Shown in pieces: positions 12,001-50,775 of a stretch of 64,000 nucleotides of DNA. The DNA lies in NCBI GenBank assembly GCA_965178125.1, contig OZ237762.1:310001-374000 (forward strand). The letters are read 5' to 3'. Both the position numbers and the translations under genes were made by a program. This stretch comes from Bilabrum cf. latius. Its lineage: Eukaryota. Positions within the stretch are counted from its first letter, which is position 1. Each line of letters begins with the position of its first letter. The notes under the pieces were generated by a model, which did no database searches, was not told the origin of the DNA, and saw only the letters and a program-made list of their open reading frames with translations.

Positions 12001-12078
12001 CAAGCCAGACGGCTTCGCGCCAGGAGGCACTGTCGACTTTGCTCCCAACCTTCTCGGCTTTCGTTGCCTTGCCTCCAT
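6037..12078 (-). CDS. ~2013-aa low-complexity repeat protein (KAPPKAGK and AEQEAEAAAKAK arrays), function unknown
   Basis: Six track ORFs share one frame and are separated only by 12 TAGs (11725, 11671, 11296, 11293, 9967, 9961, 9862, 8104, 8098, 7981, 7078, 6091). The first other stop is TGA at 6037-6039. ATG at 12078 (MEARQRKP) is the inferred start. Confidence 0.8.
8617..9307 (-). repeat. 36-bp coding tandem repeat, ~19 copies (AEQEAEAAAKAK)
   Basis: Near-identical GGCCTTGGCTGCAGCCTCAGCYTCCTGCTCTGCCTT units; one unit carries a 6-bp insertion. Confidence 0.95.
9308..9760 (-). repeat. 36-bp coding tandem repeat, ~12 copies (ASGSKAPPKAGK)
   Basis: Direct reading of the repeated units. Confidence 0.95.
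10101..10224 (-). repeat. 42-bp coding tandem repeat, ~3 copies (DESQLDQDSPPGVA)
   Basis: CCACACCGGGTGGTGAATCCTGATCCAGTTGCGACTCGTC repeated three times. Confidence 0.95.
10405..11262 (-). repeat. Second, more degenerate block of the 36-bp KAPPK repeat, ~24 copies
   Basis: Direct reading of the repeated units. Confidence 0.95.
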
Positions 12079-12286
12079 ACCAGACAATAAAAGCTTCAAA
12101 AGGTTTCTTGTCCTATGGAAATGGAAGCCTGATCCGGTCGCGATGCTGGGGCGAAGCGAGCGCGACGCCGCAAAAAGCCACGGAATTGCGGAACATAGCT
12201 CATCACACCAACAGAGGACCAAGCAAGCAAAGCACCGGGTCCCAGCCGCAATGGAGGCACCACTGCGCGGAACGTGTAATATCGAT

Positions 12287-15200
12287 TCATTGGGGAACCA
12301 TATGCTGCAGCGCATGCCTCCGGTCGAGCAGCAGGCGCCGGGCGGCATCGCTCCGCACCTCGCCCCCCTTGCCGGTGGCACCCACCGGCGCCGCACTCGC
12401 GGTTACAACCGCCCTGGCTGCCCGGAGCGCCGCCTTTGCGTCGCCCAGAACCGCCGCCCCAGCCGCTGCCTCCCCGGTTGCAACCGCACCCACGTCAGCC
12501 ACACCCACCTCCCTCCCCACCAGGTGCAGCGCACGCCGCCGCACAAGTCTCGCACGATGCAGCAGGCCACTCCCGATCCCGATCCCGATCCCACTAGTGT
12601 CTCCGCTCGAGTCACCATACTGCTGTTCCCCGGAGCCAGAGGGCGTTTCCTCACCGGACAAAAAGGGCTCCGCGCTACGCAGATCCACGGAACGCATAGG
12701 CGCCGCGCAATCTGCGGAACCGATGAGCGACTCGGCGGCATGTCTCGCAGCCCGAGCAGCCGCCAGGCACTCGGCGTGGTGATGGGCCGCAGCGGCCCTC
12801 GCCGAACGTTCAGTGGCAGTCGTGGACGACCCGAAGATGCCCCCAGACGCCACCAGGGGAAGCAGTAGCGCCCTCGCCGAACGTTCACTAGATCGGGCCG
12901 CCGCGAACCGAAGCGTGTCCGTTGCGATGCTGGCAATCGCTCGACCGACCGAGGCTCTAGATTCTGGCTCCGAGTCGGCCGCCACCTCGGCCCCTTTGCC
13001 GCCCGCGAGCAGCGCCAGCTGAGCAGCGGCAGTGCCGGGGAGAGGCACCGTGTCCATGGCCACCGCTCTGGTTGCAGCGCACTGCAGCGCGCGCAGGCAC
13101 CCGCTCCGGTACGCCCTTTCCTCTGGCCTCCTGGGCTGGCAGTACTGGCTCTGCTCTTCTACGCAGCCCAGCACTGCAGTGCACTGCGCCAGAGCGTCCA
13201 GCACCTTCAAGCTGGCCTCCTCTGGGGCCAAGGGAACTGCGGCCACATTTGGAGACGCCGATGATGCCGATGATTTGGGGGCTGAGGCAGTACCAGAAGT
13301 TTCACTTCCTCCTGGCTTTGATCCGGAAGCCCCTGCTCCTGCTGTTACTGCTGCCTGCGGCTGCAAGCCGTCAGCTGCATCCGCCCCGGGCCCCACCGCT
13401 CCCGCCACCCAAGGCGCTGCCTGCAGACGGACCAGCGTGCAGACAATCGCCTCATCTCCCTCTCTTCCCAGAGAACAAGCCTAGGGGCCTTCAATGCTAC
13501 CCGAGGATACCGCAGGGCCACCCATTCCCGTGTTCCCTGTCTGCTTCCCTGCCTTGTTCTCCGGCTCCTCCCCCTGCAGCGCCACTCGGCACGCTTGCTC
13601 AATACAGCTCTTGACAGACTCCAGCAGCTGCCGGGCGTCGGGTGATGACCACGCACCACCATGCAATGCATCCAAGTCACCCTCTTCACTGGCGCCTTCT
13701 GCCGCAGCAAGGTGGAGCATGAGTTGGATCGCCCTGCCCTGCGACCACCTGTCCCCACTCCCGGTGCTGTCCGCTGAGCAGGTCCCTAGCATTCGTCCAT
13801 CGAGCGCGCCTCGTTGCCGCAGCAACCTCCAGCAAATTGCACCCACCTGTGCCGCAGCTGACCCAGCCTCCACCACGGCAGCATACGCACGAAACACGGC
13901 CCCGCACATCTCCGCCTTGAATCGGCCCCCCGGCGCCAACGGAGTCGTCGCCTTGGCCAGGCCCTGGGCCTCCTCTGCATCGTGTGCAGCGGGTTCCAGC
14001 AGCGCTGCAGCTGCCTCCACGGCTGCCCCCGCGCGCCCCTTGAGCACCACGCCGTCGGGGGCCTGGCCCCTGGTCCGCTCGCTGACCTGGCCGCCCGCCA
14101 CCGCGGCACACGCGTGCACAACCCCGTCAACAGCGAGGCGAGCATCGGCGGCCCGGCCCGCGAGGCACAGGACCTCGCGCAGCCACGCGACAGGGAACAA
14201 GCCAGCCCGTGCCTTTGCGACCATCTCGAGGGAGCACCTGCTTTCTTGTTCCCTGGCTGACCGGAGAAGCTCCCTCGCTTCATCCCGTACAGCCTCCGCC
14301 AAGGAACACAAAGACCTCATCCCCGCGCGGCCGGTGGTCGGCATGCCAGCAGCAGAAGCGTACCCAGCCCGTGTCGCGATGGGCCCGGGCAACAGAGGAC
14401 CTTCACTCTCCGAATGGCCCGACCCGCTGCCAGCACCTGCAGCTGCTGCTCCTTTCGCGGACCCGACCGCGACACTCGTCACAGTATCTGCCTTGAAATC
14501 GTCCTCCCCCACTGCGCCCATGGCCCACCAACCCGGCCATTTCCTCACCGGCGACCCCTTGCCCTTGCCCTTGCCTTGGCCTTTAGCCTTGGTATGATGA
14601 CCCCCGGTTCCTCGCCCGGAACTAAGGGGGCCTTGGTCAGCAGCACCGGCTGGCATCTCCACGTCTGACGCGTCCAGCCACTCGTCACACAGCGACTCCA
14701 TGCCCTTCTACACCCCGATGGCTTGGTCCCCTTCGCCACCCGCCTCGGTCCCGCTGTTCCTTGCGGACATCGCGGTGGCCTGAAGACCTGCCCACCGCCA
14801 GCGCCACACGCACATCTCCCAGGCACACTTGGCCACCGCCCCGGTGGTTGCAACCACGGCGGGCCCCGCGTGCAGCTGCATGGCCACGTCGGCCCCCAGC
14901 CGCAAGGAGCGGGGATCCAGCGCGCCAGCGGGGCCCATCACCCGGGCACCTGGGATTCGTTTCGCTGCCGCGCGCGTGGCCCGCACGAGGGCCACTTCCA
15001 GGGGCTTCAATTGTTCCCTCAAATCCCGGGCGCCCTGGCCGGCCCTCCGCACGTGCCCCCCCCGGCTTAGAGCGAGCAGGGCGGTGGCGGCCGTCCTGAG
15101 GCCCTGCACCTGGCGGATGACGTGCGGCCTGGACAAATCCACTCGAAGAAACTGGTGGAGGGCCTGTTCCATGAGGCGGGGGCGCACCGGCACCAGCGCC

Positions 15201-15787: not shown

Positions 15788-17931
15788 ATGAGCAATCTTG
15801 CCTTGCTCGTAACAAGGAGTCTTTCTTTCTTGCCTTAGGAGCCGCAGCCGCTGTGTCTTCCGCCCGTGCCAGCTGGTTTTGTGGACGCGGCTTGCGTCGC
15901 ATCGTGCGCAGCGTTCATGCCCAGAGCGTTCGAGCCGGCTGGAAAGGCATACCATGTTGCGATGCTCGCGAAAGCTCGTGCGTTAGTGGGGAAAGCCAGC
16001 GGCAGCTCGGAGCCCAGTGGGCCAGCTTCCGGGGCTGGAGCTGACAACCCGAGACAACAGGTCTCGCGTGTCAAGGCGCCCAAGATCAAGGTGCCTACTC
16101 TGGAGCAGTGCGAGGAGGGTAATTTGTATGATATTCTTGGCCTGGGCGAGCAGGGTTGCGATGCGACCGAAGAGGAGATTCGCAGAAATTGTAAGAAACG
16201 TTTCGAACTGCAGTTGTCGTTGGAAGCTGCGTTTTTGCCCACTTGAGCGCGTCGCAGCAAATACCGCGTCGAAGTTATTTGGCACCCTAATGTTGATCAA
16301 GAATCTCCGCAGACCGCAAATTGATTCTCTTGATTCATCCTGACAAGGCGGGAGGCGGCTCTACGCCGAAAAAGGGTCGCAGCACCGACGACGATACGGA
16401 CCCGCGGTTTACCGCCGTGAGCAAGGCTTGGGACACGCTAAGTAACCCAGTTAAGCGTCGCGAATACGACTCACAGTTCGAGTTCGATGAAGACATCCCC
16501 TCGGGCAAGGAATCGCTCAAGACCGACGAGGCTTTCTTCGAGCTGTACGGACCCGTGTTTCGCCGCAATGCTCGCTTCAGCAAGACGACCCCAGTGCCTC
16601 GCCTGGGTGATGCAAGCACTACAATCGAAAAGGTACTCGCGTTCTACGATTTCTGGTACCGGTTCCAGTCCTGGCGCGAGATGCAGGGCGATGACGAGCA
16701 CAACCTGGACGAGGCCGACAACCGAGAGGAGCGAAGGTGGATGCAGCAGCAGAATGAGAAGCAGAGGCGCAAGCTCAGAGCGGCGGAAGGCAAGCGGGTG
16801 CTCCTGCTCGTGAAGCGAGCGCGCGCCAACGACCCCAGGGTGCAGCGGTACGAGGCGCAGCAAAAGGCCGACCAGGAAGCTGCCAAGGCCGCCAAGAAGG
16901 CCGAGGCAGCGGCAAAGGCAAAGGCGGAAGCCGATGCTAAGGCCGTTCAGGAAGAGGCCGCCAAGGTAGCAAAGGAGCAGGCAAAGGCCTCCAAGAAGGC
17001 GATGAAGGAGGCCAAGAGGATCGCCAGGAAGCGAGCGAGGTTCGCCCTCAAGCCGCTCCTAGCCCAGGGAACAATCGCGAGCTGCGACGTGGACGAATGG
17101 ATCCAGGCATTCACGGACATTGGGGAACTCTCGGCAGTGGCCGACAGGATGGGCAGCCCAGCCGACCCTGACAAGGCGAGCAAGGACCCCGAGGCACCTG
17201 CTCGGCTGGACCTGGAGCAGGTGCTCCGCGTGTACATGCAGGAGCTGGAGGGCATGAAGAAGGAGGAGGCGGCTGCGGTGGAGAGGCAGAAGGAGCGCAT
17301 CCAGGCGGCCGCGGGGGGTGCGGCAGGTGCTGGCAAGAGGGGGGGCGCGCAGATGCCTTGGACCGCGCAGGAGCTTGCGCTGCTCGCTAAGGGGGTGGTC
17401 AAGTTCCCCGCGGGGACCAAGGCCAGGTGGCAGCTCATTGCCGAGTACGTCAACTCGGCGAGGCTGCCATCGCATACCCGGAACAAGGAGGAGTGCATCG
17501 CGCGGGCGATGAGTGTGACGAGTGCCGACAAGGCCGCGCCAGTGGCCGTACCCGCCGCCGCGGCTGCCGCCCCCAAGGAGGAGGAGGAGAAGGCGGGCAG
17601 CTCTAGCGGTGCAGCCACCGGTGGTGCGGCGGCTGCGGGGGCCAAGTCGAAGGGCGCAGATGGCGGGTCACCAGGCAAGGGGAAGGGCGGTAAGGGCAAG
17701 TCGGGGGACAAGAAGAAGAAGGAGAAAGAGGGGGCGGGCGTGTGGACGAGCGAGCAGCAGAAGGCCATGCTGGCGGCCCTGAAGAAGTATCCCGCGACGA
17801 TGGACAAGAACGAGCGGTGGGCCTCGATCGCAGGCGAGGTGGAGGGCAAGAGCAAGAAGGACTGCTTCGCGAGGTTTAAGGAAATCAGGGCAGAGCTCAA
17901 GAAGCAGAGGGAAGGAAAGGCTGCCAAGTAA
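15788..17931 (+). CDS. DNAJC2: DnaJ homolog subfamily C member 2 (zuotin/MPP11) with two SANT/Myb domains; intron 16191-16312
   Basis: EPAG motif, J domain LYDILGL..RRNY|RKLILLIHPDK, FYDFWYRFQSWRE zuotin domain, and WT..ELALL / WT.EQQK SANT repeats. Ends TAA. The start needs TAG 15836 as sense or a 30-nt intron, so it is uncertain. Confidence 0.93.
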
Positions 17932-24226: not shown

Positions 24227-27200
24227 TCACGCCAGGGTTGACGATAACACATTGCACGCATGGACGCTTGCCCTTGACTGTCCAGAGTCACGCAACTGCT
24301 CGAGGCGAGGAATGGCCCCTGCGTCCCTGACACAGTGCAGCAGGTCCTCGGATAGTAGTGCAATGCCTGCAAGCATTTCAACGGCAAGGTCTCTCACGTC
24401 CTCTTTGGCTGATCCAAGCAACACCACGAGTGCCGGTAGTACACCCGAGTCTACGACACTTTGACAGCCATTTTCCGACATGAGCTGCACCTTCTGTAAA
24501 GCTTGCATGGCATACCACACCACATTGCACTTTCGCGACCCCATCAGCGCCACCAGGCACGGCAGCGCGCCCGCATCCACCACAAGTTGCTTTAGCTCGT
24601 CCGGTCCGCACACGATCCCCTACAGAGCCGCTGCCCCCATCTCGGCCTCTCTGCCCTTAGCGGATCCCAGCAGCCCTACCAGTCCCGGTGCCGCCCCAGC
24701 ATCCGCCACCTGCTATTTTCGCTCGTCTGAGCCATCGGCGATGTTGCCAATAGCATCTGCTGCTATCTATGCCTCCTTGCCTTCGCTCGAACCAAGCAGC
24801 GCAACCAGTCCCGGCAACGCGCCTGCATCCACCACTTGCTTAACATGATCCTCTGTACCCGCGGTAATACTCCGCAAGGCCCTTGCGCACAGTTCTCGCC
24901 CCATACCCCGGTCTGATCCCAGCAGCGCCACCAAGCCCGGCACCGCTCCAGCTTCCACCACATGCTGCTTGCACTCGACCGAATTTACAGCGATATTGGC
25001 CAAGGTTCCGGCTCCTTGCTCTGCTTCCTTGCCCTTGTCCGATCCAAGCAGTGCCACCAGTCCCGGTAACGCTCCAGCATTCACTACATCTTGCTTTCGC
25101 TCATCCGATCCAACGGCGATATTTCGCAGAACCCCTGCTCCTAGCTCGGCCTCCATGCCCTTGCCCGACCCAAGCATTGCTACTAGACGCAGCGTTGCGC
25201 CAGCATCCACCACTTGCCGCTTTCGCTCATCAGATCCAATCACAATCAGTCGCAGTGCACCTGCAGCATGCTCAGCTTCTCTACCTTTGTCCGAACCCAG
25301 CAGCGACACTAGATGAGGCAAAGCTCCCGCTCTGAGAACCTAGTCCTTTCTCTCCTGCGACCTACAAACGATGTTCCGCAGAACCTCAGCAGCATATTCT
25401 GCCTACGCTCCCTTGCTCATTCCCAGCAGCGCCACCAAGCCGGGCAATGCGCCAGCATCCACGACTTCCTGCCGTCTCCTGTTGGACTCGTTAACGATGT
25501 AGTATAATGCCTTGGCTCCAAGCTCGGCTTCCGTGCCCCTGCTCGAACCAAGCAGCGCCACCAAGCCGGGCAACGCACCAGCATCTACCACTTGCTTCTT
25601 TTGCTCCTCTGTTCCCGCGGCAATGTCCCGCAGAAGCTCAGCTGCAAATTCTCGTTCCCTACCTTCACGCGATCCCAGCAGCGCCACCAAGCCCGGCAGT
25701 ACCCCTGTATCCACCACTTGCTGCCGGCTCTCGTTGGAATCGTTGACGAAACAACGCAGAGCCCCCACCGCAGCCTCGACCACACTGTTCTTGTCTGACC
25801 TCAACAGCCCAACCAGCTTTGGGAGAGAGCCTAGATCTATCAGTGTCTTGCAGATCCCGCCCGACTTGGATGCTGTTGCTGATATAGCTAGCGCTGCGCA
25901 CTCTGCATCGCTTGCTCTGGTCGATGACAGCATGCCAACAAGTTGATGCACAGCGCCCGACAGGACCAAGTGGTCAACGAACTCCTCACCATCAGCCTGT
26001 ACTGCATGCCACAAAGCTAGGGCAGCCTAATCAGCCGCAGGTTCTGCGCACCTGCCCGCCATGTAGAAGTTGAGACGCTGGAGCTGCCTTGCATCCTCCA
26101 ATAGCATCTTCTGCAAGGCATGCCGGACGCTTGCTATCATGGGTTGCACCGCTGAGCCTACACCAGCCCAACCTGCACCGAACTCCACATGCAGTAGCAT
26201 CAGCGCCCTGTACACCCCTGTCCAGTTCGCGCCACGCATCATCGAACTGAGGAGCTGGTGCAGTTCGCTGACAGCATCTCCGTACATGGGCCCTTCTCCA
26301 GCCAAAGGAGCTAGTAAAGGCCTCACCTATGCTTCCACTGACTCGGAGCTGTGCTCGAGCGGTCGGCTGGCCTCGGTATCTGCCTGGCTCGCCTTGTCCC
26401 AGCACGGCAGACGTTCCAGTTCTTGCTGCAGGGTGGTGCACGCATCCCGCACCCCTGTTCTCCTCTGTTCCTCGCACTGCAGCAGCCCCTCCACTAGATC
26501 AATGAACCACGGAGGACACCCCGCAAGTCGGTCGCCTCGTGCCACTGCCACACCTTTCTCAAGTCGAGCCAATACGGTTCTTGCGCCACCTGCTGGTACA
26601 CGCCTCCCGCCACGCAGCTCCAGGGGATATGCATCCCCGAATGGGTGCTACCCTCCCGTGGCAAGCTCGTGCAGCAGCACGCCCAGCGCCCAAGAAGCTT
26701 GCTTGCCGAGGGGAACAATTGCATCATCGTCACCTGCCGCTCCCTAGCTCCACCCGTCTAGCACCTCGGGGGCCAGGTGGGCCTGGTTGCCCCAAGCGGC
26801 ACGATCTGTAGACCTCAGCTCCCCGTACGTGACCAGGTTTAGAGCCCTGCCAACTGACGTCTCTGTCCTAGTGGTGGTCGCCTCTGTCCCTGGGCCTGAG
26901 TGCTCGGCCAGCGGGTGCGTCTGTGCAGCTGCTTCAGCTGCCCCCTTGGCCTCCTCTTTGCCCCGTGCCGCAGCGGCTCCTGGCACTTGCGTCTTGGACG
27001 CTTCCAAACACGTATCACCTGTATCTACTTGGAACGCATAGTCAAGACCAGAGAGCACCACCCGCCCTGAGCCATCTGGATCCCCCTTCGAGTCCCACTT
27101 AAGGCTGTCCAGGCTCAGATTGAGGTGGACGACCCCATGCTGCAGCAGGTGGTGCACACCGTCCGCTACATCCTTCGACAGTTGAACCAGCACATCATCT

Positions 27201-34775: not shown

Positions 34776-37700
34776 ATGATTCGGGGCTTTCGGACGGTTT
34801 GCGTCGCTTTGAGTCCGCGCGTCATTCGACGAATTGCCGTCCGCAGCCTCGCGACAGATATGCGCAATGTGCACGGCTTGATGAGATAGCAGCGTATCAT
34901 TTCGAGCAAGTGTAGCGCACGTCTTGAGTACTATGGCAGAGGGATGCAGCGCACGCTTTTGTCAGATGCTGTGGTTGGCCCAGGCACTACATTATCATCA
35001 ATCAACCAGAAATGGACGATGACTTTGGGGACAGCTTGGCACGGTTAGCGGTCCATGGAGGCATTCATTTTGCAAGTCCCCTTATTTTTTGAAGAACTTC
35101 AGAGGCAATCGCGGGAGACTGTAGAGCAATCTGCTTCAGCCATGTTGAGCTGCCAGCGTCGGGCAATTATTGTTGCTAGGCAACACAAAGACAAGACTCC
35201 AGGCGAAGTTGCTGAATCGATTCACACTCTGATATCACGTGAAGCTGCTTCTGATGATCGCATCCTCTAGGGTGGCGATGAGTTACAAGCTGCAGATGCC
35301 GACAACGTGCAATACCTTCTCAATCAAGGCCTACTGAGCTATATGGCGCACAAGGGCTCGATTGATTACCTTCGCAGCGATCAGGCAATACTAGATATGA
35401 AGGAGATGAGAGACATCATCCGCGAGTCGCTTGAGCAAGATGATTCGAAGCGTAGGAAGGAGGAGGAACGGCAAGAACAGAAGCGTAAAGAGGATGAGCG
35501 GCTTGCGAGTGAGGGCCTGCCTCCTGCAGACTACCTCGAACAGATTCGTGGGCAACAGATCGCGATCGACGCTGAGGCTATTGTTTCCTCCATCAGCAAG
35601 GCAGCGGCAAGGACCGGCTTTCAGATCCCACGGCCATTCGAGGGGGGTACTGTCGCAGAGGCTATCAAGAGGCATATCTAGGCAAACTGTAGAGGAGTGG
35701 AACTTGCTGACGCCGTGCGCGAGTCTCTGCGGCTACTTGGAGATGCCATGGTGGACTTGAACGCAAGTGCGAACGCTAACCCTAAGAACGCTATGGAGTG
35801 GTCAGCAAAATGGAAGGTGGCCATGTTCCCGATTGTCGATGCGCCGGACAGCCAGTCTCCACGGCGGCAAAAGCTTGATGTGTTATTGAAATTGTGCTTT
35901 GGCACGGATCCGGTGGGTCTGAGAGGTGGGACGTTGATGGGATACGAGGGCTTGGGCAAATCGCAGATAGTCAAGAACCTTGTGCTTGGCAAGCAACTCG
36001 CTGGGTGGGCCCTGAAGGGCCACCCTGGCAGTGATCGCAGGCATCACGTTGGGATCTTTGTAGAGGACCCCAGCATGTCCACTCTCGGATTGATGCGCGT
36101 GCGGCCACCATGGGCCCATGTCGCCGTGGAGTTGGATCGATTGGGTCTGCTTAGGGATGAGAACGGAGATATTCCATCCTGGGCACATTCAGAGGTTGCG
36201 TGCTACCGGGAGGCTCAAATGAATTTTTGGATGGTGGACAGAGACATCGACTGCTTGATCGCCTACGACGAGGCCCAGCACGCGCGCGAAGTGGTACAAG
36301 AAAATCGCGGAGGAATGGTCAAATACACTGCGCGATCCAAGCGATTTTGGGATGGGATTGACGATTGCGTTCGGATCGACACCCAAGCGATTATGATTGT
36401 GCTCACTGGCACTGGCAGCGACTTGGGTCGCATCGTGTACGGGAGACGCGAGGAGACTGGCCAGTTTCCCGGGTCTGATCTGCAGCGCGACAAGTTCAAG
36501 TCGCGGTGGATGGAGTTCACGTACTCCGAGGCTGAGATCTGCCTCATGCTGCTTCGACAGCTGGCTGGGACAGAACGGGATAGAAATTGGGTGCCAGATG
36601 ACGGTAGTGACCCTGCTGCAGCATTGAGGCCAGTGTGTGGGCAAGATGCCGTGCTGGCCCTAGCCCTTGCCATTCGTGATGTTCCGGCCTCGAGTCCTTG
36701 GGCAAGCACGGGACAAGTGGTCCACCCTGGCCTTGAAGCCGTGCATGCAGCCGTGCAGTCGTACTACAGAGAACTAGAGGAGGGTAAAGCTGGAGATGCA
36801 GCTGGTTCGGTTTCACTTGACATTGCGCCGGCTGGCAGAATGACGAAGCAAATCGCTGAGCATGCCTTTAGCGACGACAGACTGATGCAAGTGGCAACGA
36901 GATCCAGGGAAAAGGTGATGCTCAGGGCGTGGTAGACGGGTGGCCTGGCCCGCAGTCTGGCTGACATCAACGGATAGGGTGAAGTGGATGGGTCTTCGAC
37001 CACGGAGGGAAAGATGGTGGAGTGGTTCCGGCACATGAACGAGAACATCGGAGGTTTCCGAGACGTTATGATTGCTATGGTCAGCTACATGAACAAGTTC
37101 CGACCGTCGTGGCTGTCTGACTCAATCGTGAATCCGATGGCGGAGATGCCGACGATACTCGTGGTTGAGCTGGTGGGAGAGATGGAGACCCTTGTAGGTG
37201 ACAGCAATACCAATGGAGAGGAGTTGGCGAAGAAAGTGACGCTGCTGAAGAGGCACCTAGCTCGTTGGCGTATCAAGTAGCTGATTGGGTATCGCACCCA
37301 GTAGGAGGGGCTGTACACGTCGCAGGGGCAATCTATCTCAGAACCGTCTGCCAGCTTTCTCGGAGGCTCATTTGCATTTCTGACGCAGCAATACACCGCC
37401 ATCATGAAAGGTGTGTACGTGACTAGGCGAGAGCTTGCATCACTGCAGACGCAGGAAGGCCAGTTTGGCAAGGACTTTGAGATGGTTGTGGCCGAGTCGC
37501 TGCACCGCGGGCTGGTGTCCAAGATACTGGCGAAGGGGGTGCTGCCCAATGTGCCCAAGGAAGTGTGGGAGGGCAAAGAGGATCCCATTGTAGAGCACGA
37601 TCGCGCGAATAGCTTGCTGGATGAGGACTGCCTCTTCTACATCAACAAGCCATGCGAGCACTCCCGGGAAGAGCTCGTGGGACGCGTGATGCGGGAGCAC

Positions 37701-41492: not shown

Positions 41493-41669
41493 GCCAAGGG
41501 TGAGGCCAAGTGAGCGATCCTGGCTGGTGCTGCACGATCCCGGGTGTGACATGCGTGCTGAAAGGATGCGATAGAGTGCAAGTTTCCATTTTGTTTGTTT
41601 CGAAGATCCATCGCCGGGCAGAGGCGAGAGATCACCGAGCCGCGATCAAAGCCCAAGCTGCCTGGCTCT
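41155..41669 (+). repeat. 515-bp direct repeat, right copy
   Basis: Matches 33601-34115 and contains the functional stop of the 41646 gene. Confidence 0.95.
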
Positions 41670-44600
41670 GAACCAGAAGGCGGCCGTAGTGGCTGCCACC
41701 ACCACGAAGCAGATGATCATGGTCCTCTCCGCGTAGAAAGCCGACCACTGCATCTCCTTCCTCTGCCTCCTCCTCTCCGCCTTCTTCTGCGCTTTCTTCG
41801 AGGATCTCCTCCTCTTCATTCTCTCCACGCCGTCTGCCTCCAGCCGAGGCGATATCACCCTCCTGCCCCTGAAGTCAGACTCGCCAGACACTGCGCTGCT
41901 GGCGGTGGCAGTGGCACCAGCCCTCTCGCCACCAGACGAAGCCTGACCCGCCCCCCTGTTGTTCCCTGACGCATTGATGGGTCGCCTCGCTCCCGCTGAC
42001 ACGTCTCTCTCGTACTGGTTCCGCCTGTACACTGGCCCTTTGATCGCCAGCATGTGCCTCATTGCGTGGTACCCGTCAGAGGCACGCCTCCCTCTGCCCT
42101 TGCCTCCCCCTCTGCCCGTGCCCGTGCCCGTGCGAGCGCCCCCTCTCTGGGCACCGCCACCCCCGGGACCCTCCTTTGTTCCCTGGTTAGCCTCGGTGTC
42201 CTCCAGCGGATCGCTATCTGGTCCCCCCGCCAGGCCACCTGCCACGTGCCGCACCGGGCTGAGTTCCCCAGAGAACAGCAGCCCGGCTTGCGCGACCCGG
42301 CCTCCTGCAAGCCTCCTCGCCCGGTTGTCCACCACTGCAGGCACGCCGTCATCGAGCACCCCCTGAAGGAAATCGTCCTCCCTGGCCAGCCCATGGGCGG
42401 CATGTCCAGGCACGAATTCGTCCTCCTCGTCGCTGTGCGCCTCATAGCCCGGGATGAAGGGAACGTTCGCCACCGAGTTCCTCCGGCCGATGCTGGAGGT
42501 GCTGGAGATGTACCGGCTGATCCTGCTGTCCCCTGAGTCGCTCCTGCCCTCCTCGCTGTCTGCCGCAATGTGGCCAGAGATCCCTGTGCTGGCTTGCACC
42601 GCATCATGGCCTTGCATCCTCCTCCCCCCTGCCCTGTCCTGCACCCGACCCTTTCCACCTCCTGGTGTCACCCCTGTCGCCTGCTCGGGCCGATGGTCGA
42701 GCCTGCCCGCGCTGCCACTGCCGCTCGGCATGATCTTGCCACTGCCGTACGCAGACACCCTACTCTGTCGTGTGCGACCGGCCCATCTCTACTTGTGGCT
42801 GGGTGAACTGGGCGCTTGTGGCACCTGCACACCGGCAGCTTCTGCAAGCGTTTCTGCAGCGTGCTGCTCCGTCGCTGCTGCCGCCATGCTGCCCTGCCCA
42901 TTTGCCTCAAGCACCGGGCTGCTCCCCGGTTCCACCAGCGGTGCCGTCACTTCTACTCGCATGGGTGGCGGGAGCCCGCCCATCTCGCTGTTGAGGGCAG
43001 GGGCCTCGAAGGTCGCTGGACCACCGTGACCAGTAGCACTCGAATCGTGCGACACGTCCTGCGTATCATCCGCAGCAATGCTGCTTGACCCGTCCTAGTT
43101 CTTACCCGACCCCTGAGCCTGAGTCTGCTGGCCCCTGCTCGATATGAGCTCCGCCTCCCCCACGACGGCTCCACCAGCCCCGGCTGCCGAGCCACCAGAG
43201 GCCAAGAGGCTGGCACTGCTAGCCCTGCCCTTGAACCCCATACGAGGCGGCGCATCAACGCCGCCCTCCTCCAGGTCCTCGCCAGCGCTGCGCTGCGAGT
43301 CGCTGGAGGACCCACTTGAGCTGTCGCTGTTCCTGGCACGGTCTGGACTCTGCATCAGCAGGCCAGAGGCAACGCCCATGTGGAACGAGCGCTTCCTCGA
43401 AACGTCATTAGGGCCGCCTTGCAGCTCGTATCGTGGCATGCGGTGCTCCCCGTCGCGAGCTGTCTGTAGCAGCGAGCTGCTGTCACCATCAGCAGTCACC
43501 TCCACTTCCTTCTGCGAGTCGCGCTGCGAATTTGAGGCACCGCTGGACCCGCGGGAGCGACCCGTGTCCTTGTTCTCAGACGTGCCGTCGCTCGAGTCCA
43601 AGATGCCGTCCCTTGTGGCCGTATTCGCAGTGATAACGGCAGCCGTGTCGGTGCGCTTGTTGGAGTTCCTATTGGCTTCAATCAGGTCCTGGTTCACGAG
43701 CTGCTGAGAGAGTGACAAGCTCTAGGACACGCGGCGCACGTGCTAAGCGCTGTAGTCGGCCCCGTGGTGCGCCCTGGGTTGGGTAGACCCCAGCACCCGC
43801 TTGCTCCTCTGCCGCTCCTGGCTCATGCTTTCCGCGCGAGAGCGGGAGCTGCGACCCACGCTGCCGCTGAGGAAGTGCCTGCTGCCGTGGCTTGCCGAGG
43901 ACTTGCTCCGATTCCGCTATTCCCCCAGGTTGGCCATGGACACCACGGCGCCCGCGTCTTCGCTCTGTTTCCCGTGGGGTGGGGTCCCTCCGGCATCTCC
44001 GGCGCTGGCGTTTCCAGAGGGCAACACCGCACTGACCCGCTGACCTCCTGGACCGCTGGCGATTGAATGCCGACTCAAAGACCTCGATCGATCCCTCCTC
44101 TCCTGGTTGATGTGACGTGCGGACTCCCGCATGTCCTTGGCCTCTGCATGCGTTGCCAGTCGCATGTGGGCCTGGTGCACGAACCGAACCATCACGAGTG
44201 CCATCTTGCCGCCCCACCGCAGGCGAGCGTACGCGTGGTGCCTCCGAGTGATGATGTAACCCACACCCGAGGCCACGATGGTGATGATGAAGATGAGAAG
44301 GAAACCCGTCCCGAAAAGCATGGACTGCAGCGAGTCCTGCTGCACCCCAATGCCAAGGTACCAGGCCCTCATCTTGCCGCTGAGCGAGTCCTGCTCGTCC
44401 TGGATGTCGTCGAATGACGCCGACAGCACCCTCGAACGGATGGCACCGATCCCAAACATGAGCTCCTCACCCAAAAAGGAAGCAGCCACGCAAGCAGTGG
44501 CGAGGATCTCTTGCAGCACGGCCGATTCGACCTTCTTGGCTGTGGCCTGTGCCTGCCAGAGCGGTTGCACGGGCCACATCACGAACCTCGAGTTGCATTG

Positions 44601-46260
44601 CGTGATTGCCTGCCACAAGTGCACGTAGAGCCGCGTCTCGATAAAGATGATGCGGCCCATCTTGACCAGCGCGGTGAAGCCGAACGCAAGCGAAAACGGG
44701 TCCAGCTGCACGAACGCCACGGCAAGGAACACCCGCGAAAGGAACCCGAACAGGAACTTTGCCGGTTCAGAAGCCACCGGGCTGACGGTAGACGCTGCGG
44801 CCAAGATATCGATGGCATACTGCGTCACACCCAGGACGCCGAGCACGAACGAGATGACCGCCATCTGAAAGATCGGGCTGTCTCGCGTGATGCTGAGCCC
44901 AAAGAAGAGAAACTCTCCGAGCGCGGGCGCGAATGCATCCAGCATCACCACGAGCACCACAACTGCCCCGGGGTCTAGCCGCCGCCGGCCTGCCTCTCTT
45001 CTTGCGTAGTCCCAGAAGATGACCACTCCGGCGAACAATGTTGCCAGCGCACCCATCGGCACCAGAAGAGCCTCGACACCCGACTGGAACGCGATCTAAC
45101 CCAGGGGGATGGCCAGTGCGAAGATCCATGCGGTGATGGACATTAGGCCGGGAGACCACACGGGATTGTGCCTCGCGCAGCACTGGTCATGATGGTTGCA
45201 ATACTCCCGGGCAGGGACGCAGCAGGCGTCGCAGCAGGTGAGGGGGCTGCAGTACCCGCAGCAGATCTTGTTCGTACGAATCCACCGCTGGCAGCTGCCA
45301 CAGACGAGGTAGGCTTCCTGATTTGCCACTTCAGCTACACGGATGTGTGCCTACACCTCGTGCTGCTGTGCCAGCATGACAACCCGCTAATAGTCCTCGT
45401 CCTGCTGCCTGACAGGGCCGTATCCGAGCCTGTCCTGTGGCACAGCCACGGGCCTGGGCACGGGCCGATCGCCACCACTTGTGCCAACCTTGACGGGGGG
45501 CGGCGGCATGGCAACCGCAGCAGGAGTTGCGTTCTGTGTTCCCTCGCCTGGGTGCTGCCTCGATGCCACGTCTTCTGCTTGCGGTGCCTCGCCGTTCTCG
45601 GCAGCCTGTCTCGCGATGACATCGGAATTCTTGGCGGTGTGAATACGCTTAACCTTCGGCATGTCCACGTCTGGGGTATTCCGGCCGTCGGCACTGCCAT
45701 TGCCGTCTCTGTCATCGTCCTGCGCGCCACCCACGTCAATGGTCCGCTCCATCGACCGCTTGCGGTTCATCCCACGGTCCCCGCCGGGACTAGGGTGGAA
45801 GTTGCCGCTCTGGACCAGCTGACCAGGCGAGGCGCCTGATGCCATACCCCCAGCTGCATCGCCTTCCGTGCGTCTTGGGCTCGTGAAGGTGGGCTCCGAT
45901 TCGGTGTTGCCGGTCATGCCTGTGATCACCTTGCCGCTTCCCAGCGAGCTAGTGGAGCTCTAGTGGTGCACATTCACCATGCTCGCAGATTGCCTCGGCG
46001 TGAAATCGTAGCTGGGGTGCTACTCGCCCGCAGGACGGGGCCCTCTACTAGGTGACCTCCCGTCCCCTGATCGGAGCAGCATTTCCTAGCCGTCTGCCGC
46101 CAAGCCGGCAGTGTCGTGGCTGGGGTGCGTCACCTCGCGCATCGCCAGCGTGCGGCTGAGTCCGCTGTTCGAGGAGTTCGTGTGGGCCGAGCTGGAGGTG
46201 CTGGCGGGCTGGCTGCCTCCACCACCGTCAATGGGTGCATCGACCTGCAGCGCGAATGGG

Positions 46261-46312
<52 letters not shown>

Positions 46313-47493
46313 AAGGGCTTGCTTGGGGAGAGCTATCCTGCCCTCTGTCTGGCTGCGGCGTGGACGCTAGTGGCAGCGAAAGCGAGGCAACGGCTCCTTC
46401 CTGCGTGGCTGCACTGGTGCCACCAGTGGACGTCTTCTTGGGAGCTGCACTCGCAGGCTGCAGGGAGTCTGACCCTGTGGATGGCTGCTTGCGAGGAGCA
46501 TCGATGCGAAGCGCACTCGAGCTGCTTCGGTCACCAGCGGCTGGGCGGGCGGCGGTGGGGCTGCCTGCAGGGTGCTCCTTCCCGTCGGCCTCTACTTCTG
46601 CCTCGCTAAACATCCTGTCCACGCGCTTGCCGTCGCCTGTTTCGAACCAACCGCCAGCTGGGGTGTTTGTGGGGTTCGCGGTCGGTGCGGCCAACATGGA
46701 GGCAGCAGCAGCAGCGCCGGCGGTACGGCTGGCACTGGCACTGCTGTCCTGCTTTGACTCTCTGCGAGCCACCACTCGATGAGAGCCACCTGTCTAGTGC
46801 GAGTCTTCGGGCCTGGGCGCCCGATCGAACCCTCCTTCACTGGCAGAGTGCGCCTCGGTGGGTGGTGCATGGCTTGCAGATGTGGTCCTGGACGGGCGCG
46901 GCCCTGATTTGCTGTCTACTCCATTGGCATGAGAGGCATCAGCAGAGCTTGCGGCACTGTGAGGCTCTGCATGCAGGTGCAGCGAACCGTCGGCTTGGCC
47001 CACCGCCAGCACCGCCGCTTTAGCCATGGTCATGGGAGCGTTTGGCAATGCCGCCACCCTCGCCGAGGAGGAGGAAGGGGAGGGGCGCGCGGCAGCGATG
47101 GAGCTCCGCCGCCTGGCCTTTGCCCTGCTGATTGCTGCCAGCGCCTTGCGAGCGAGCCTGTCCCTCGTGGCCTGCGAGGCAGACTGCACCCTGGCCCTCT
47201 CGGCATCAAGGCACAGTACCTCCAGGTCGATTTCCTCCTGCAGTGTAACGGACCCGCAGCAGCACCATGTGTGCGAAGGGCTGAATGCGGGGAGCACTTC
47301 CTCCTGGAACTCGATCTGCGTGCCCTTCATGTCGTGTCTGGCCAAAGCCCGCATCACTGTCGTCACGCTCTCGCCCCCGCTGGGTGCCTTGGCAGAGGAC
47401 GCTGAGGAGAGAGCTCGTTCCCGGCGTGAGACCCCGCCGTTGGGAGGGTCAGGGATGCCTGCCGTCTGCGTTTGCGTTTGCGTTTGCGTCTGC

Positions 47494-47527
<34 letters not shown>

Positions 47528-49178
47528 GGCCTCCTCCAGTGGACGAGGAGGAGGACCCTAGCCCGGTGGGGGTCTGGCGGTCCGTGTCAGACTCTGTGAT
47601 CTTGGGGTAGGCGAGGGCGCTCTTGTGCTCCAGCTCGTGCTTCTTCGACTACAGCTGGCTCTGCCCGCCGTAGGAACCACCCGGCGGATCAGACCCATCT
47701 GGCTCTCCTGCAGGCCTGGTCCCAGCAGCCAGTTGCACCCCCCCACCCCGGGGTACACCCCCGCTGCCCCCACTCGGGGGCATTCTGGTGGAGGGGAGTC
47801 GAAGGGAGGACGAGGAGAAAGCGGCGTGCTTCCTCTGCTCAGAATCCATGTCTGCAGCTGTGGCAACGTGTGACGAGTGGTTGCGCCTGCCAGCATCACG
47901 TTCGCCGCCAGCAGCTGCTTCAGTCCCATCGTGGTGAAACGACTGCCTTCCCTTTGTTGACTGTGGCTGCCTACCGGCTGAGGCAGCATCCGCCCCGCTT
48001 GAGTTATCCAGGCTGCTCCTGCTCCTGGACCTGGATCCGTTGCCATTGCTATTTTCCATGCCCTAGACATCGCCTGCTCCACTGGTGGAGTGGCGGCGCC
48101 GGCGGCGAGTCGCCGCGGCGCCAGTCCCGCTAGCGCCTGCCTTTAGTTCCGCACCGCTGCTTGCGCTTCCGCTGCGGCTGCGTCCCCCGCTGCGATTGGA
48201 CCGCACGCTGCGAGACGATTCGCCGCGCTTTCCACTGGCAGACCGTCCTCCGCCTCGCGACGGACTGGACTGTCCCAAATCTTGTTCGTCGAAACGACGG
48301 CTCACTCCCATGTACTCATAAAAGCGCCCAGATGTGCTTCTTCGATTGTCGTTGCCTGAGCGCGGGCTTTCTGCGCCCTTCGCGAATTGCGGCGAATCGA
48401 TGAGGGTTCTCGCGGCTCGGTGCAACAGTCGGCGTGTGTGCAGCAGCCTGCGGCGATACGCGTAATGCCTCGTCGCAAATAATACCCACGGGATACCAAC
48501 CTAAAGAATCAGCACGGCGCCAATAAAGAACGCCGCTCGGAGCCAGAAGAAGGCCGGTATGGACCGCATTATTTCGCTCCGCTCGGTCAATGTCACATTG
48601 CCGGGTGCCGCCTGCAGGCTCGCAGCTCGAATGCCTCCTCGAAACACAGAACCACCTATTGCGTATCCCCACCACATGGCAGGGGAGTAGCCCCCTCCCA
48701 TGCACGCGGCGTACCACCGAAAGGTCTGTTGCCAGTGGCTGAGCCCCTGACTGAGCCCTACCACGACCGATCTCCAGTGCTTCGTCGACTCCTGTCCGGA
48801 GTATCCTAGAGCACACATACTACCAACCAGAAGTGCGAACGTGAGAGCAAACACAGTGTCGAACAAGCGCTAGTTAGTGACAGACGGGCACGCGAATCGA
48901 GTCCAACATCGCTTGGAACCAGCAGCACGGGGCTCATCCTCTCCATCTCCATTTCCATCGTTGATGAGGGGCTACTCATTCAAGTCCTGGCCATCTAGAC
49001 GAGTCCGCGTGCCATCTCGCATGGTATCGAGCGCGAGTGTGGGTACGTTGAGCGCTGCTTCGCCGTCATCTCCAGCTCCGGATGACCCTCGAATAGCGGC
49101 GTTTGACGGCGCGTTGTTCGCTGGTATAGCGTCTGTAGTCTGCATGTACACTTCCTCTCGCTTGGACTGTTCGTTCAT
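41646..49178 (-). CDS. ~2510-aa multi-pass membrane protein with long disordered loops and poly-Gln tracts, function unknown
   Basis: Twelve track ORFs lie in one frame; 19 in-frame TAGs and no TAA/TGA over 7.5 kb until TGA 41646. Hydrophobic clusters near 48450-48870, 44250-45150 and 41670-41720. Start inferred. Confidence 0.8.
46263..46313 (-). repeat. Coding TAG(CAG)16 poly-Gln tract
   Basis: (CTG)16 followed by CTA on the + strand, in the frame of the large gene. Confidence 0.95.
47490..47528 (-). repeat. Coding (CAG)4-TAG-(CAG)8 poly-Gln tract
   Basis: (CTG)8 CTA (CTG)4 on the + strand, in frame. Confidence 0.95.
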
Positions 49179-49816
49179 GTACACGAACCGAGGTATTCGA
49201 TCGAGTGGCGCGTGCGCATCCACAGAACGCACCAACTTACACGTAGTTCTTGTACGAGTTGGTGGACTAGCGAAAAATGCCTGCGATACTGACTGTAGAA
49301 TATGAAACAAGTGCCAAGGTAGGAGAATACCGCTGCGACTGAATCTCGTAGGCCGTCTCAGGCGGCACCGCCGGTGCTGGGTTCGCCACCCGCGCATGCT
49401 TGGTGCGTCTGTCCTGCACTGCCGTAGTTGGCAGCCAGCAGGAGATGCAGACAATTTATCAAATTTGAACGAACCTGATTGGCAGAGCCACTTCAAAAAG
49501 TGCGCCTTGGTATCCGCCCAGCGGCAAGACTAGACTCCCGAACGTTTGCTTTGGCACAAGCAAACAAAAGCCGAAGAAATCCGGTAATTTCCCGAAGACA
49601 GCCGCAAAGGTTCTCACTGTCAGATATGATAATATATTCCACTCCTGTAGACGTATAATATGGGCTGTATCAGTGGTTCAGCACATGTTGTGCGATGGTC
49701 GCTGTTGGTCGCAAGCCAGTGCGCTCGGCCAAAGGTCTGGTTTGTGTGGAAGTAACGCGTCATTATAGCTGCTCGTGGCGACCACCACCCAGCTCTTCCG
49801 TTCACTACAAATATAC

Positions 49817-50775
49817 ATGTCAAACGTAGGATGTAAGCAAATTTTGCAGATAGTGTTGCTTCGCTGTTCGGAACTTCCGGTGCGGGCTTGCACCATTGGG
49901 TTTTCATCCTGGTTTCACGGTGCATCAAGACCTGGCCTTTGCTCGCAGCGTCTGTGTCATACCGGCGAGCCGAGGGCGAGTCTACCGAATGGGAAGATTT
50001 GCAACGCAAGTATGGCAACTTACCGCCGAAGCCAAAGAAGAAAAAATCGCCCAAGGCAGACGAACCGGACATGACTTCGGTGCCCGAAGGCGTGATGAGG
50101 CTTACCGAAGCTGGCTCGTCGGCTTTGAAGGTGGAAGCGCTGGAAGACAAATCAGAATTTGCTGATGATAGGGAAATGGAAGAACTTCGCAGGCGAAGAC
50201 TCGCAGATTTGAAAGCAATGGCCTCGAAGAGACGTTTTGGTTCTGTGACGGAATGCGACCGCGCTGGATTTGTGGTAGAAGTGACCGAATCCAGCAAAGA
50301 AGGCGGTGGACAGTGGGTTGTTGCGTAGCTGTACAGTCCTACGGCGCCTGCGTCGCGTTACATGGATGAGATTGTCGCTGTTCTCGCCCGGGAGCACTCT
50401 GGCACGAAGTTCGTGCGAATCCGCGCCCAGGACTGCATCCCAGGATACCCAGACAAGAACGTGCCCACATTGCTGCTTTATTTCAACGGCAAAATGCAGC
50501 AGCAGCTGGTGGGAACGGGAGAGTACGGCAGCGGTGCCCCCACGAAGGATTCGGTCGAGTGGGTGCTCGCCCAGAGGCGCGTGCTCAAGACAGACATGAC
50601 CGAGGACCCCAGATCTGGCATGGCTTCCGCAGGGGGTTCCGGAGCAGGCAGCAGTGGATTCGCTGGGTTCGGGGGCTCTGGAGGGGGGAAGATGACGATG
50701 GCGATCGGCCGCGGCGGAGCTGGCAGGAGGCGGGGCGGGGACGAGGACGAGGAGGACGACGACGATGACTTTTGA
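49817..50775 (+). CDS. PDCL3: Phosducin-like protein (PhLP2/PDCL3 type); probable first intron ~49833-49948
   Basis: STEWEDLQRKYGNLPPK, RRRRLADLK..RFGSV..FVVEVT..WVVA*LY..TKFVRI..CIPGYPDKNVPTLLLY. TAG 50326 lies within the thioredoxin-like domain. Ends TGA. Confidence 0.9.

What the first reader, a model, noticed from the sequence alone, without database searches (positions are those of the whole stretch)
46263..47528. TAG inside CAG poly-Gln tracts points to UAG = Gln
The minus-strand frame reads QQQQ*QQQQQQQQTQTQ at 47514 and P*Q16H at 46311. Similar Gln-rich contexts occur at 8098/8104 (MQG*G*HQQHQHQP), 11293/11296 (SSG**NAQG) and 9961/9967 (QPQRGG*G*A). TAG behaves like a synonymous variant of CAG. 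A C-to-T change in a CAG run could be tolerated whatever residue TAG encodes, so this supports Gln without proving it alone.
Basis: partly seen in the sequence, partly recalled or inferred. Interest (0 to 1): 0.8.

Follow-up and report, generated by a model that had tools for sequence, protein, structure and literature searches.

The report
TAG read as glutamine codon
In this GC-rich eukaryotic DNA the usual stop codon TAG sits inside many long genes and most likely encodes glutamine, while TGA and TAA still end genes, a rare variant of the genetic code.

Summary
On the minus strand, (CAG)4-TAG-(CAG)8 lies at 47490-47528 and TAG-(CAG)16 at 46263-46313. Both are in one 2655-codon frame with 20 TAG and no TGA or TAA.

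TAG is a sense codon across the window. Reading it through lengthens the longest frame from 819 to 2655 codons. Six long frames (9112 codons) hold 56 in-frame TAG, 0 TGA and 0 TAA. Spliced transcript contigs carry 17 of that gene's 19 coding TAGs unchanged.

Gln is the best-supported meaning. In an 88%-identical relative, all 4 window TAGs inside the conserved membrane domain are Gln. Three relatives' fragments stop where the window has CAG. Four stop exactly at a window TAG.

The support is not clean:
- In a second, fast-evolving gene, 3 of 3 TAGs align with Tyr, Leu and Trp.
- In armadillo repeats, TAG sits in columns whose consensus is Glu, Glu, Gln, Gln and Arg.
- TAG neighbours are not Gln-enriched overall.

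TAA behaves as a stop, so the code resembles NCBI table 15, not table 6. The organism was not identified, and no tRNA or eRF1 could be examined. It is probably a new member of a known kind.

The parts
41646..49175 (-). Coding sequence of a roughly 2500-residue multi-pass membrane protein with long low-complexity linkers. It is part of P0001 (frame 41646-49613). It holds 19 coding TAGs and ends in TGA at 41646-41648. This is the gene that contains the finding.
   Evidence: Searches give the frame and its 20 TAGs. One search shows the relative's fragment P0028 starting at Met157. One search shows transcript contigs over 41155-46251, 46320-47457 and 47539-49176. One search gives the TGA end.
47490..47528 (-). 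(CAG)4 TAG (CAG)8, with the TAG at 47514-47516.
46263..46313 (-). TAG (46311-46313) followed by (CAG)16.
43917..45389 (-). Conserved Cys-rich and transmembrane domain. Its four window TAGs (45387-45389, 45351-45353, 45096-45098, 43917-43919) are all Gln in the relative's fragment P0007.
   Evidence: One search gives the alignment (88% identity over 729 columns). One search gives the coordinates.
43743..43745 (-). TAG shared with the relative: P0007 ends one residue before it. The same holds at 48972-48974 (P0028) and 48501-48503 (P0026). At the latter position a 25%-identical homologue, P0032, has Gln.
43128..43130 (-). Window CAG at the point where the relative's fragment P0008 ends, which suggests a TAG in the relative. 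The CAG at 47172-47174 is the equivalent for the 60%-identical fragment P0027.
6037..12402 (-). 2121-codon frame of a repeat protein (P0002) with 12 TAGs.
24620..25405 (-). Five TAGs inside the 13 armadillo repeats of P0004: 25403-25405, 25340-25342, 24767-24769, 24713-24715 and 24620-24622. The consensus residues of their columns are Glu, Gln, Glu, Gln and Arg.
   Evidence: Pfam Arm, E 2.6e-58. (42-residue register). Coordinates are my arithmetic from the frame start at 28033.
35046..35681 (+). Three TAGs of P0003 (35046-35048, 35268-35270, 35679-35681) that align with Tyr, Leu and Trp in the 82%-identical fragment P0009.
17929..17931 (+). TAA acting as a terminator of the zuotin/DNAJC2-like gene. 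It lies 7 codons after the second Myb/SANT domain, and the downstream sequence does not look coding.
   Evidence: (Myb_DNA-bind_6 at 483-537 of 544).

Best explanation
The window is nuclear DNA of a GC-rich (about 60%) eukaryote with few, short introns. This organism has reassigned UAG, and only UAG, from stop to sense. UAG most likely encodes glutamine, while UGA (the main terminator) and UAA still end genes. The TAGs in the two CAG runs are then C-to-T transitions that leave the poly-Gln tract unbroken.

What is shown:
- TAG lies in frame in almost every long gene.
- It stays TAG in spliced transcripts.
- Its positions are partly shared with a relative about 10% diverged in DNA.
- Under purifying selection it exchanges only with Gln/CAG.

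What is inferred and not seen:
- A tRNA-Gln with anticodon CUA. CUA is the only anticodon that reads UAG but not UAA, as argued for Iotanema in PMC5304391.
- An eRF1 that no longer recognises UAG.

TAG makes up about 11% of Gln codons. It is rarer in the four most conserved genes. In weakly constrained genes it also arises from non-Gln neighbour codons as ordinary missense change.
For: **TAG is a sense codon.**
- With TAG read through, the longest frames grow from 819 to 2655, 2121, 1268, 1268, 1129 and 1042 codons. Reading TAA through gains nothing comparable.
- Six long frames (9112 codons) hold 56 TAG, 0 TGA and 0 TAA in frame. Off-frame counts are TAG 67 and 54, TGA 132 and 199, TAA 20 and 32.
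- Nineteen frames (15,568 codons) hold 79 TAG, 481 CAG and 154 CAA.
- Runs X5-X7 show seven GT..AG or CT..AC joints of 88-131 nt, so they hold spliced RNA. X5 contigs cover 41155-46251, 46320-47457 and 47539-49176. Their only 4 differences all lie 3' of the stop. So 17 of 19 coding TAGs are neither spliced out nor edited.

**The meaning is Gln.**
- P0007 has Gln at 4 of 4 window TAGs.
- Fragments end before window CAG at Q2162, Q591 and Q814.
- Four of 8 close fragments end exactly at a window TAG.
- The distant homologue P0032 has Gln at X371.
- In an empirical likelihood over the 7 close pairs, Gln scores log10 L -8.8, against Tyr -12.7, Leu -16.7 and Glu -17.1.
- In a Poisson fit of TAG counts to residue content in 102 chunks, Gln is best at -112.5. 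Length alone gives -116.4, Ser -117.2 and Glu -126.8.

**TAA and TGA are stops.**
- Of 18 frame ends, 15 are TGA and 3 are TAA.
- The zuotin-like gene ends at TAA just after its last domain.
Against: - Three of the 7 close-relative pairs are not Gln. X181, X255 and X392 of P0003 align with Tyr, Leu and Trp. In the same alignments Trp is otherwise conserved 32 of 32 times and Gln 31 of 35 in P0003.
- Armadillo-repeat columns under TAG have consensus Glu (7 of 12), Glu (10 of 12), Gln (5 of 12), Gln (6 of 12) and Arg (6 of 12).
- Single distant homologues give Arg at X1506. Human POLE2 gives Glu and His.
- The two GH43 TAGs fall in variable loops.
- TAG neighbours are not Gln-enriched, and a neighbour-profile likelihood does not favour Gln.
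- All non-Gln partners are single-base neighbours of TAG, so mutation alone explains part of any pattern.
- The two TAGs in the CAG runs are the two not covered by the listed transcript pieces.
- The window holds no tRNA and no genome is held. The decoding tRNA, eRF1 and any use of TAG as a terminator are untested.
- Frame ends were defined by TAA or TGA, so they cannot show a TAG terminator.
Confidence: 0.8

Rival explanations
1. UAG is decoded without one fixed meaning. Either near-cognate tRNAs read it after eRF1 lost UAG recognition, giving a mixture such as Gln, Tyr and others, or it is both sense and stop depending on context, as in Condylostoma or karyorelict ciliates.
For: TAG aligns with Gln, Tyr, Leu, Trp, Glu and Arg in different genes. 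In-frame TAG density equals off-frame density. The window has no tRNA. TAG is scarce in the four most conserved genes: 3 in 2364 codons, against 76 in 13,204 elsewhere.
Against: In the constrained domain, 4 of 4 partners are Gln, and 3 fragment ends fall on CAG. That is what one synonymous meaning predicts. The non-Gln partners come from one gene that shows many radical changes, for example 10 Glu-to-Lys, and from old repeat columns. In Iotanema and in ciliates with UAG = Gln, only 58-79% of conserved TAG columns are Gln (passages of PMC5304391 and PMC11687900).
Confidence: 0.08
2. UAG encodes one other amino acid. Candidates are Glu (as in peritrichs or Blastocrithidia), Leu (rhizarian exLh and some phyllopharyngean ciliates), Ser (Scotinosphaera), Tyr or Trp.
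For: Two armadillo TAGs lie in strongly Glu columns. Human POLE2 has Glu at one TAG. P0003 TAGs align with Tyr, Leu and Trp.
Against: No single alternative explains more than 1 of the 7 close pairs, whereas Gln explains 4. Likelihoods are 10^3.9 to 10^8 lower than for Gln. Glu and Ser content predict TAG counts worse than Gln content does. No Ser was seen opposite a window TAG.
Confidence: 0.05
3. Both UAG and UAA encode Gln (NCBI table 6, as in ulvophycean algae, hexamitin diplomonads, oxymonads, aphelids and many ciliates). On this reading TAA is merely rare because the genome is GC-rich.
For: TAA is rare everywhere in the window: 433 occurrences on both strands against 876 TAG. TGA is the main terminator, as in table 6 organisms.
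Against: There are 0 TAA in 9112 in-frame codons, against 20 and 32 in the two off-frames. If TAA:TAG followed CAA:CAG (154:481), roughly 15-20 would be expected (my arithmetic). TAA closes the zuotin-like gene right after its last domain, and what follows does not look coding. Reading TAA through only extends frames into neighbouring genes.
Confidence: 0.04
4. The in-frame TAGs are not translated at all. They would be introns, RNA-edited sites, pseudogene lesions or assembly errors.
For: The window does have introns. P0003 evolves fast.
Against: Transcript contigs run unspliced and unchanged through 17 of 19 TAGs of the main gene. Four TAG positions are shared with a diverged relative. In-frame counts of 56 TAG against 0 TGA and 0 TAA cannot come from decay or error.
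Confidence: 0.01

Closest known systems
UAG-only to Gln nuclear code of the fornicate Iotanema spirale (Panek et al. 2017, PMC5304391; passages read)
   Same: UAG is sense and most often aligns with Gln. UAA and UGA are kept as stops. UAG is a minor Gln codon: about 8% there and about 11% here. Not every conserved TAG column is Gln (79% there).
   Different: Iotanema ends genes mainly with UAA (104 of 119). This window uses TGA (15 of 18 frame ends) and is 60% GC. Its relationship to Iotanema was not tested.
UAG to Gln in the ciliates Hartmannula sinica, Trochilia petrani and Protocruzia tuzeti (NCBI table 15; McGowan et al. 2024, PMC11687900; passages read)
   Same: The codon table is the same. 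The share of TAG at conserved Gln positions is similarly imperfect (58-70%).
   Different: Those ciliates terminate almost only with UAA. The window has long intron-poor genes, GT..AG introns of 88-131 nt and high GC. From my own knowledge, not from a call, that is unlike ciliate macronuclear DNA.
UAR to Gln (table 6) in Ulvophyceae, Hexamitinae, Streblomastix and Amoeboaphelidium (listed in PMC11687900; Ulvophyceae in PMC8271138)
   Same: A stop is reassigned to Gln. TGA is the working terminator.
   Different: In those lineages TAA is also Gln. Here TAA is absent in frame and closes genes.
Other UAG-only reassignments: Leu in the rhizarian exLh (PMC5304391) and Ser in Scotinosphaera (PMC8271138)
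   Same: UAG is decoupled from UAA in a non-ciliate nuclear genome.
   Different: The residue differs. Leu explains 1 of the 7 close pairs and Ser none.
Code 15 in crAss-like and Lak phages (PMC9523058 and others; search listing only)
   Same: TAG is read as Gln.
   Different: Those are phage genomes that rely on a suppressor tRNA. This window is eukaryotic, with spliceosomal introns and eukaryotic gene families.

Membership tests
UAG = Gln with UAA and UGA as stops (NCBI table 15 type) | UAG occurs in frame inside bona fide, expressed coding sequences. | tested here: met
   There are 79 TAGs in 15,568 codons of 19 frames. Six long frames hold 56 TAG, 0 TGA and 0 TAA. Pfam domains lie on TAG-containing frames. 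Transcript contigs carry 17 of 19 TAGs of one gene.
UAG = Gln with UAA and UGA as stops (NCBI table 15 type) | UAG positions correspond to Gln in orthologues. | tested here: inconclusive
   Four of 7 close pairs are Gln, including all 4 in the constrained domain. The other 3 are Tyr, Leu and Trp. Three fragment ends fall on CAG. Distant homologues give Gln, Arg, Glu and His. Armadillo columns give Glu, Glu, Gln, Gln and Arg. Gln is the most likely residue, but the sample is small.
UAG = Gln with UAA and UGA as stops (NCBI table 15 type) | UAA is not a sense codon and still terminates. | tested here: met
   In-frame TAA is 0, against 20 and 32 off-frame. TAA follows the last domain of the zuotin-like gene.
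UAG = Gln with UAA and UGA as stops (NCBI table 15 type) | UGA still terminates. | tested here: met
   In-frame TGA is 0, against 132 and 199 off-frame. Fifteen of 18 frame ends are TGA.
UAG = Gln with UAA and UGA as stops (NCBI table 15 type) | UAG is never used as a terminator. | not testable with these tools
   Frames were delimited by TAA or TGA. No 3' end mapping or C-terminal orthologue set was available.
UAG = Gln with UAA and UGA as stops (NCBI table 15 type) | A tRNA-Gln with anticodon CUA, and an eRF1 with altered UAG recognition. | not testable with these tools
   ARAGORN found 0 tRNAs and Rfam gave 0 matches in the window. No genome is held.
UAR = Gln (NCBI table 6) | TAA as well as TAG occurs in frame as sense. 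| tested here: not met
   There are 0 TAA in 9112 in-frame codons. Table 6 lengthens no credible gene.
UAG = Leu, Ser or Glu variants | TAG aligns mainly with that residue in orthologues. | tested here: not met
   Among the 7 close pairs, Leu appears once, Ser never and Glu never. Log10 likelihoods are Leu -16.7 and Glu -17.1, against Gln -8.8.

The most novel reading that the evidence does not exclude
This would be an independent and so far undescribed origin of the UAG-only to Gln code, in a GC-rich, TGA-terminating, intron-poor, non-ciliate eukaryote. At least two species about 10% apart in DNA would share it, so it would belong to a clade rather than a single strain. In this lineage UAG is used almost as freely in frame as out of frame. 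New UAG codons arise not only from CAG but also from Tyr, Leu, Trp and Glu codons in weakly constrained genes.
Probability: 0.45. Interest if true: 0.7.

Novelty: new member of a known kind. Interest (0 to 1): 0.6.

Why it matters
Nuclear codes in which UAG and UAA mean different things are few. The passages I read name Iotanema, a rhizarian, Scotinosphaera and some ciliates. Each new case bears on how release-factor specificity and suppressor tRNAs can separate the two codons.

There is also a practical consequence. Any annotation of this genome under the standard code will cut most long genes into pieces. The public protein set already shows this for the relative: one gene appears as fragments of 87, 55, 724 and 194 residues.

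A GC-rich organism that ends genes with TGA and has long CAG tracts also offers a contrast to the AT-rich, UAA-terminating lineages where this code was described.

Tried and rejected
- **Whole genome:** none is held.
- **tRNA and Rfam scans of the window:** nothing found.
- **Sequencing-run search:** no listed holder is on record as RNA. Organism names are coded.
- **Read laying:** only 40 of 1551 differences were shown, so codon partners of TAG in the roughly 90%-identical run X8 could not be tallied. The two CAG-run TAGs lie in stretches where contigs break.
- **Metagenome scans:**
  - P0007 alone found no relative.
  - The alignment A1 found two distant loci of 72-73% GC with no in-frame TAG in the domain. 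They are of no use for the tally.
- **Protein searches:**
  - The word search for P0004 returned only armadillo paralogues and distant proteins, not the close orthologue.
  - The representative search on residues 100-1299 of P0001 returned 7 proteins. None spans a window TAG in a reliably aligned region (P0027's BLAST alignment runs over X700 in an unaligned low-complexity stretch), although three of them (P0026, P0027, P0028) gave informative fragment ends.
- **Solved-structure alignments:**
  - In GH43 both TAGs lie in variable loops or gaps.
  - In POLE2 a single homologue gives Glu and His.
- **Neighbour-profile test of TAG identity:** uninformative. Thr, Met and Gly ranked top and Gln low.
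- **Taxon leads:** the ESM Atlas and cluster look-up gave no usable organism lead.
- **P0003 relatives:** PHROGs gave nothing on the three fragments P0009-P0011; P0003 itself gave nothing in Pfam.
- **Literature:** six searches found no report of a GC-rich, UGA-terminating eukaryote with UAG-only to Gln. This covers only the held open-access library, and supplementary files were not seen.
- **Considered and rejected:** introns, editing, pseudogenes and table 6 (see the rival explanations).
Full report
**What the window is.** The window is 60% G+C. It encodes eukaryotic gene families:
- a gamma-tubulin complex component, an aldehyde dehydrogenase and a GH43 hydrolase
- a zuotin/DNAJC2-like protein, a kinase-like protein with 13 armadillo repeats and a sulfatase
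- Kelch, EF-hand and BTB/BACK proteins, and DNA polymerase epsilon subunit B

Contigs of runs X5-X7 join across seven short introns of 88-131 nt: six GT..AG and one CT..AC on the other strand. This is therefore nuclear DNA of an intron-poor eukaryote. No whole genome is held. Organism names of the runs are coded. I could not identify the organism.

**The observation.** It is correct to the base. (CAG)4 TAG (CAG)8 has its TAG at 47514-47516, and TAG (CAG)16 has its TAG at 46311-46313. Both lie in the minus-strand frame 41646-49613, which has 20 TAG, no TGA and no TAA, and ends in TGA.
- These are the only two in-frame CAG/CAA runs of 4 or more codons in the window, and both carry a TAG. That is about 0.17 expected against 2 observed (my arithmetic, P about 0.013).
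- TAG neighbours overall are not Gln-enriched: 15 of 310, or 4.8%, against 4.1% composition. Gly leads with 55 of 310.

**TAG is a sense codon.**
- With the three standard stops, the longest stop-to-stop frame is 819 codons. With TAG read through, frames of 2655, 2121, 1268, 1268, 1129 and 1042 codons appear.
- Six long frames (9112 codons) hold 56 TAG, 0 TGA and 0 TAA in frame. The two off-frames hold TAG 67 and 54, TGA 132 and 199, TAA 20 and 32. TAG is thus as common in frame as out of frame, while TGA and TAA are excluded.
- Across 19 frames (15,568 codons) there are 79 TAG, 481 CAG and 154 CAA, so TAG is about 11% of presumed Gln codons. A few of the 79 may lie upstream of the true start codons.
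- X5 contigs cover 41155-46251, 46320-47457 and 47539-49176. Their only 4 differences all lie 3' of the stop codon. So 17 of the 19 coding TAGs of this gene are present, unspliced and unedited, in material that also shows spliced joints.
- The tool labels these runs RNA only as a guess. The two TAGs at the CAG runs fall where the contigs break.

**Which residue: evidence from close relatives.** The public protein set holds ORF fragments of a close relative, broken as a standard-code gene caller would break them. The fragments share 82-97% amino-acid identity with the window's proteins. They are possibly from the organism of run X8, which matches at about 90% DNA identity, but this link is not shown.

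For the gene that holds the finding:
- P0007 (724 residues, 88% identical) spans four window TAGs and has Gln at all four.
- P0007, P0026 and P0028 each end exactly one residue before a window TAG (X1957, X371, X214), so these TAGs are shared.
- P0008 ends where the window has CAG (Q2162).
- A 60%-identical fragment, P0027, ends before CAG Q814.
- A 25-28%-identical full-length homologue, P0032, has Gln at X371 and Arg at X1506.

**Which residue: results against a clean Gln reading.**
- In the second gene with close fragments (P0003, 82% identical), the three TAGs inside P0009 align with Tyr, Leu and Trp. In the same alignments Trp is otherwise conserved 32 of 32 times, and Gln 31 of 35 times in P0003.
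- P0009 ends before CAG Q591. P0010 ends at the shared TAG X810. P0012 ends before AAG K924, which TAG X925 directly follows. P0011 ends before TCA S1168, which may be a true TGA or TAA stop in the relative.
- The overall tally is 4 of 7 close pairs Gln. Of 8 close fragment ends, 4 fall on a shared TAG, 2 on CAG, 1 on AAG and 1 on TCA.
- In the 13 armadillo repeats of P0004, the five TAGs sit in columns whose other 12 repeats read Glu 7, Glu 10, Gln 5, Gln 6 and Arg 6.
- Human POLE2 has Glu and His opposite the two TAGs of the polymerase subunit. The two GH43 TAGs lie in variable loops.

**How I reconcile the two sets.** A window TAG opposite a sense codon in the relative means that this codon changed after the split. 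The partner must then be a single-base neighbour of TAG.
- In the constrained membrane domain (90% identity) only synonymous change should survive. There every partner is Gln/CAG.
- P0003 shows many radical changes, for example 10 Glu-to-Lys. There, partners drawn from all neighbour codons are what near-neutral missense change predicts.
- P0003 still has 9 TAG but no TGA or TAA in 1268 codons. It is therefore not a decaying pseudogene.
- Quantitatively, an empirical likelihood over the 7 pairs puts Gln first: log10 L -8.8, against Tyr -12.7, Leu -16.7 and Glu -17.1.
- Gln content is the best single predictor of TAG counts across 102 chunks of 150 codons: -112.5, against length -116.4, Ser -117.2 and Glu -126.8.
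- Imperfect agreement is normal for this code. Only 79% of hyperconserved TAG columns are Gln in Iotanema, and 58-70% in two ciliates (passages of PMC5304391 and PMC11687900).

**TAA and TGA.**
- Fifteen of 18 frame ends are TGA and 3 are TAA. By construction none can be TAG.
- TAA is absent in frame.
- TAA closes the zuotin-like gene 7 codons after its last Myb/SANT domain, and the sequence that follows does not look coding.
- Table 6 only extends frames into neighbouring genes.

The code therefore looks like NCBI table 15 (UAG = Gln only), not table 6.

**Mechanism.**
- Shown: UAG is in frame in mature-looking transcripts and exchanges with CAG under constraint.
- Inferred from established knowledge and from the argument in PMC5304391: a tRNA-Gln with anticodon CUA, and an eRF1 that ignores UAG but still reads UAA and UGA. 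Neither could be examined, because the window has no tRNA gene.

**Comparison and novelty.** UAG-only to Gln is described for Iotanema spirale, Protocruzia tuzeti, Hartmannula sinica and Trochilia petrani. All of those terminate mainly with UAA. UAG-only to Leu (a rhizarian) and UAG-only to Ser (Scotinosphaera) also exist.
- This window differs in using TGA as its main stop and in its high G+C content.
- Six literature searches found no such case. They cover only the held open-access library, and I saw no supplementary files.
- I rate it a new member of a known kind. If the lineage turns out to be one already described, it is already known.

**Verdict.** Confidence that TAG is a sense codon is about 0.97. 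Confidence in the full statement (UAG = Gln, with UAA and UGA as stops) is 0.8.

Noticed in passing
window 34506-38312 (+): A 1268-codon frame (P0003) has no Pfam match, and the relative's fragments P0009-P0011 have no PHROG match. It lies in the lower-GC part of the window (52-56% over 28-40 kb). It differs from its 82%-identical relative by many radical changes, such as 10 Glu-to-Lys, and its TAGs align with Tyr, Leu and Trp. Its function is unknown and it appears to be evolving fast.
   Followed up: partly
window 6037-12402 (-): A 2121-codon frame (P0002) is made largely of two tandem repeat families: about 45 units of KAPPKAGKA(S/A)GS-like sequence and about 20 units of AKAKAEQEAEAAA. It has no Pfam family.
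   Followed up: no
window coding frames: TAG is scarce in the four most conserved genes (GCP, ALDH, zuotin-like and Pol epsilon B): 3 in 2364 codons. The other frames hold 76 in 13,204. A similar low use of reassigned UAG was noted for ribosomal protein genes of the rhizarian exLh (PMC5304391).
   Followed up: partly
window 50730-50770: Depth in all four laid runs spikes here (165-328, against about 5-50 elsewhere), with many joints and loose ends. The sequence is a GAC/GAG-rich acidic low-complexity motif shared by many unrelated contigs. This is a mapping artefact, not a feature.
   Followed up: yes
window 56270-56362: A CT..AC joint (a 93-nt intron on the minus strand) appears in runs X6 and X7. 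It lies between the EF-hand gene end and the BTB/BACK gene start, both on the plus strand. This suggests an unannotated minus-strand transcript.
   Followed up: no
window 18146-19507 (+): A saposin-like Cys-patterned frame has a threefold repeat, GGKGA-TAG-GGGKGTT, in which TAG recurs at the same place in each unit. The TAG was therefore copied along with the repeat.
   Followed up: no
L001 1-3624 and L002 1-4266: Two metagenome contigs of 72-73% GC encode 24-29%-identical homologues of the membrane domain of the finding's gene. They have no in-frame TAG within the domain. The family therefore exists in organisms that appear to use the standard code.
   Followed up: partly
window 24227-28033 (-) and 34506-38312 (+): Two unrelated frames have exactly the same length (1268 codons) on opposite strands. 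Their sequences are not similar, so this is a coincidence rather than an inverted duplication.
   Followed up: yes
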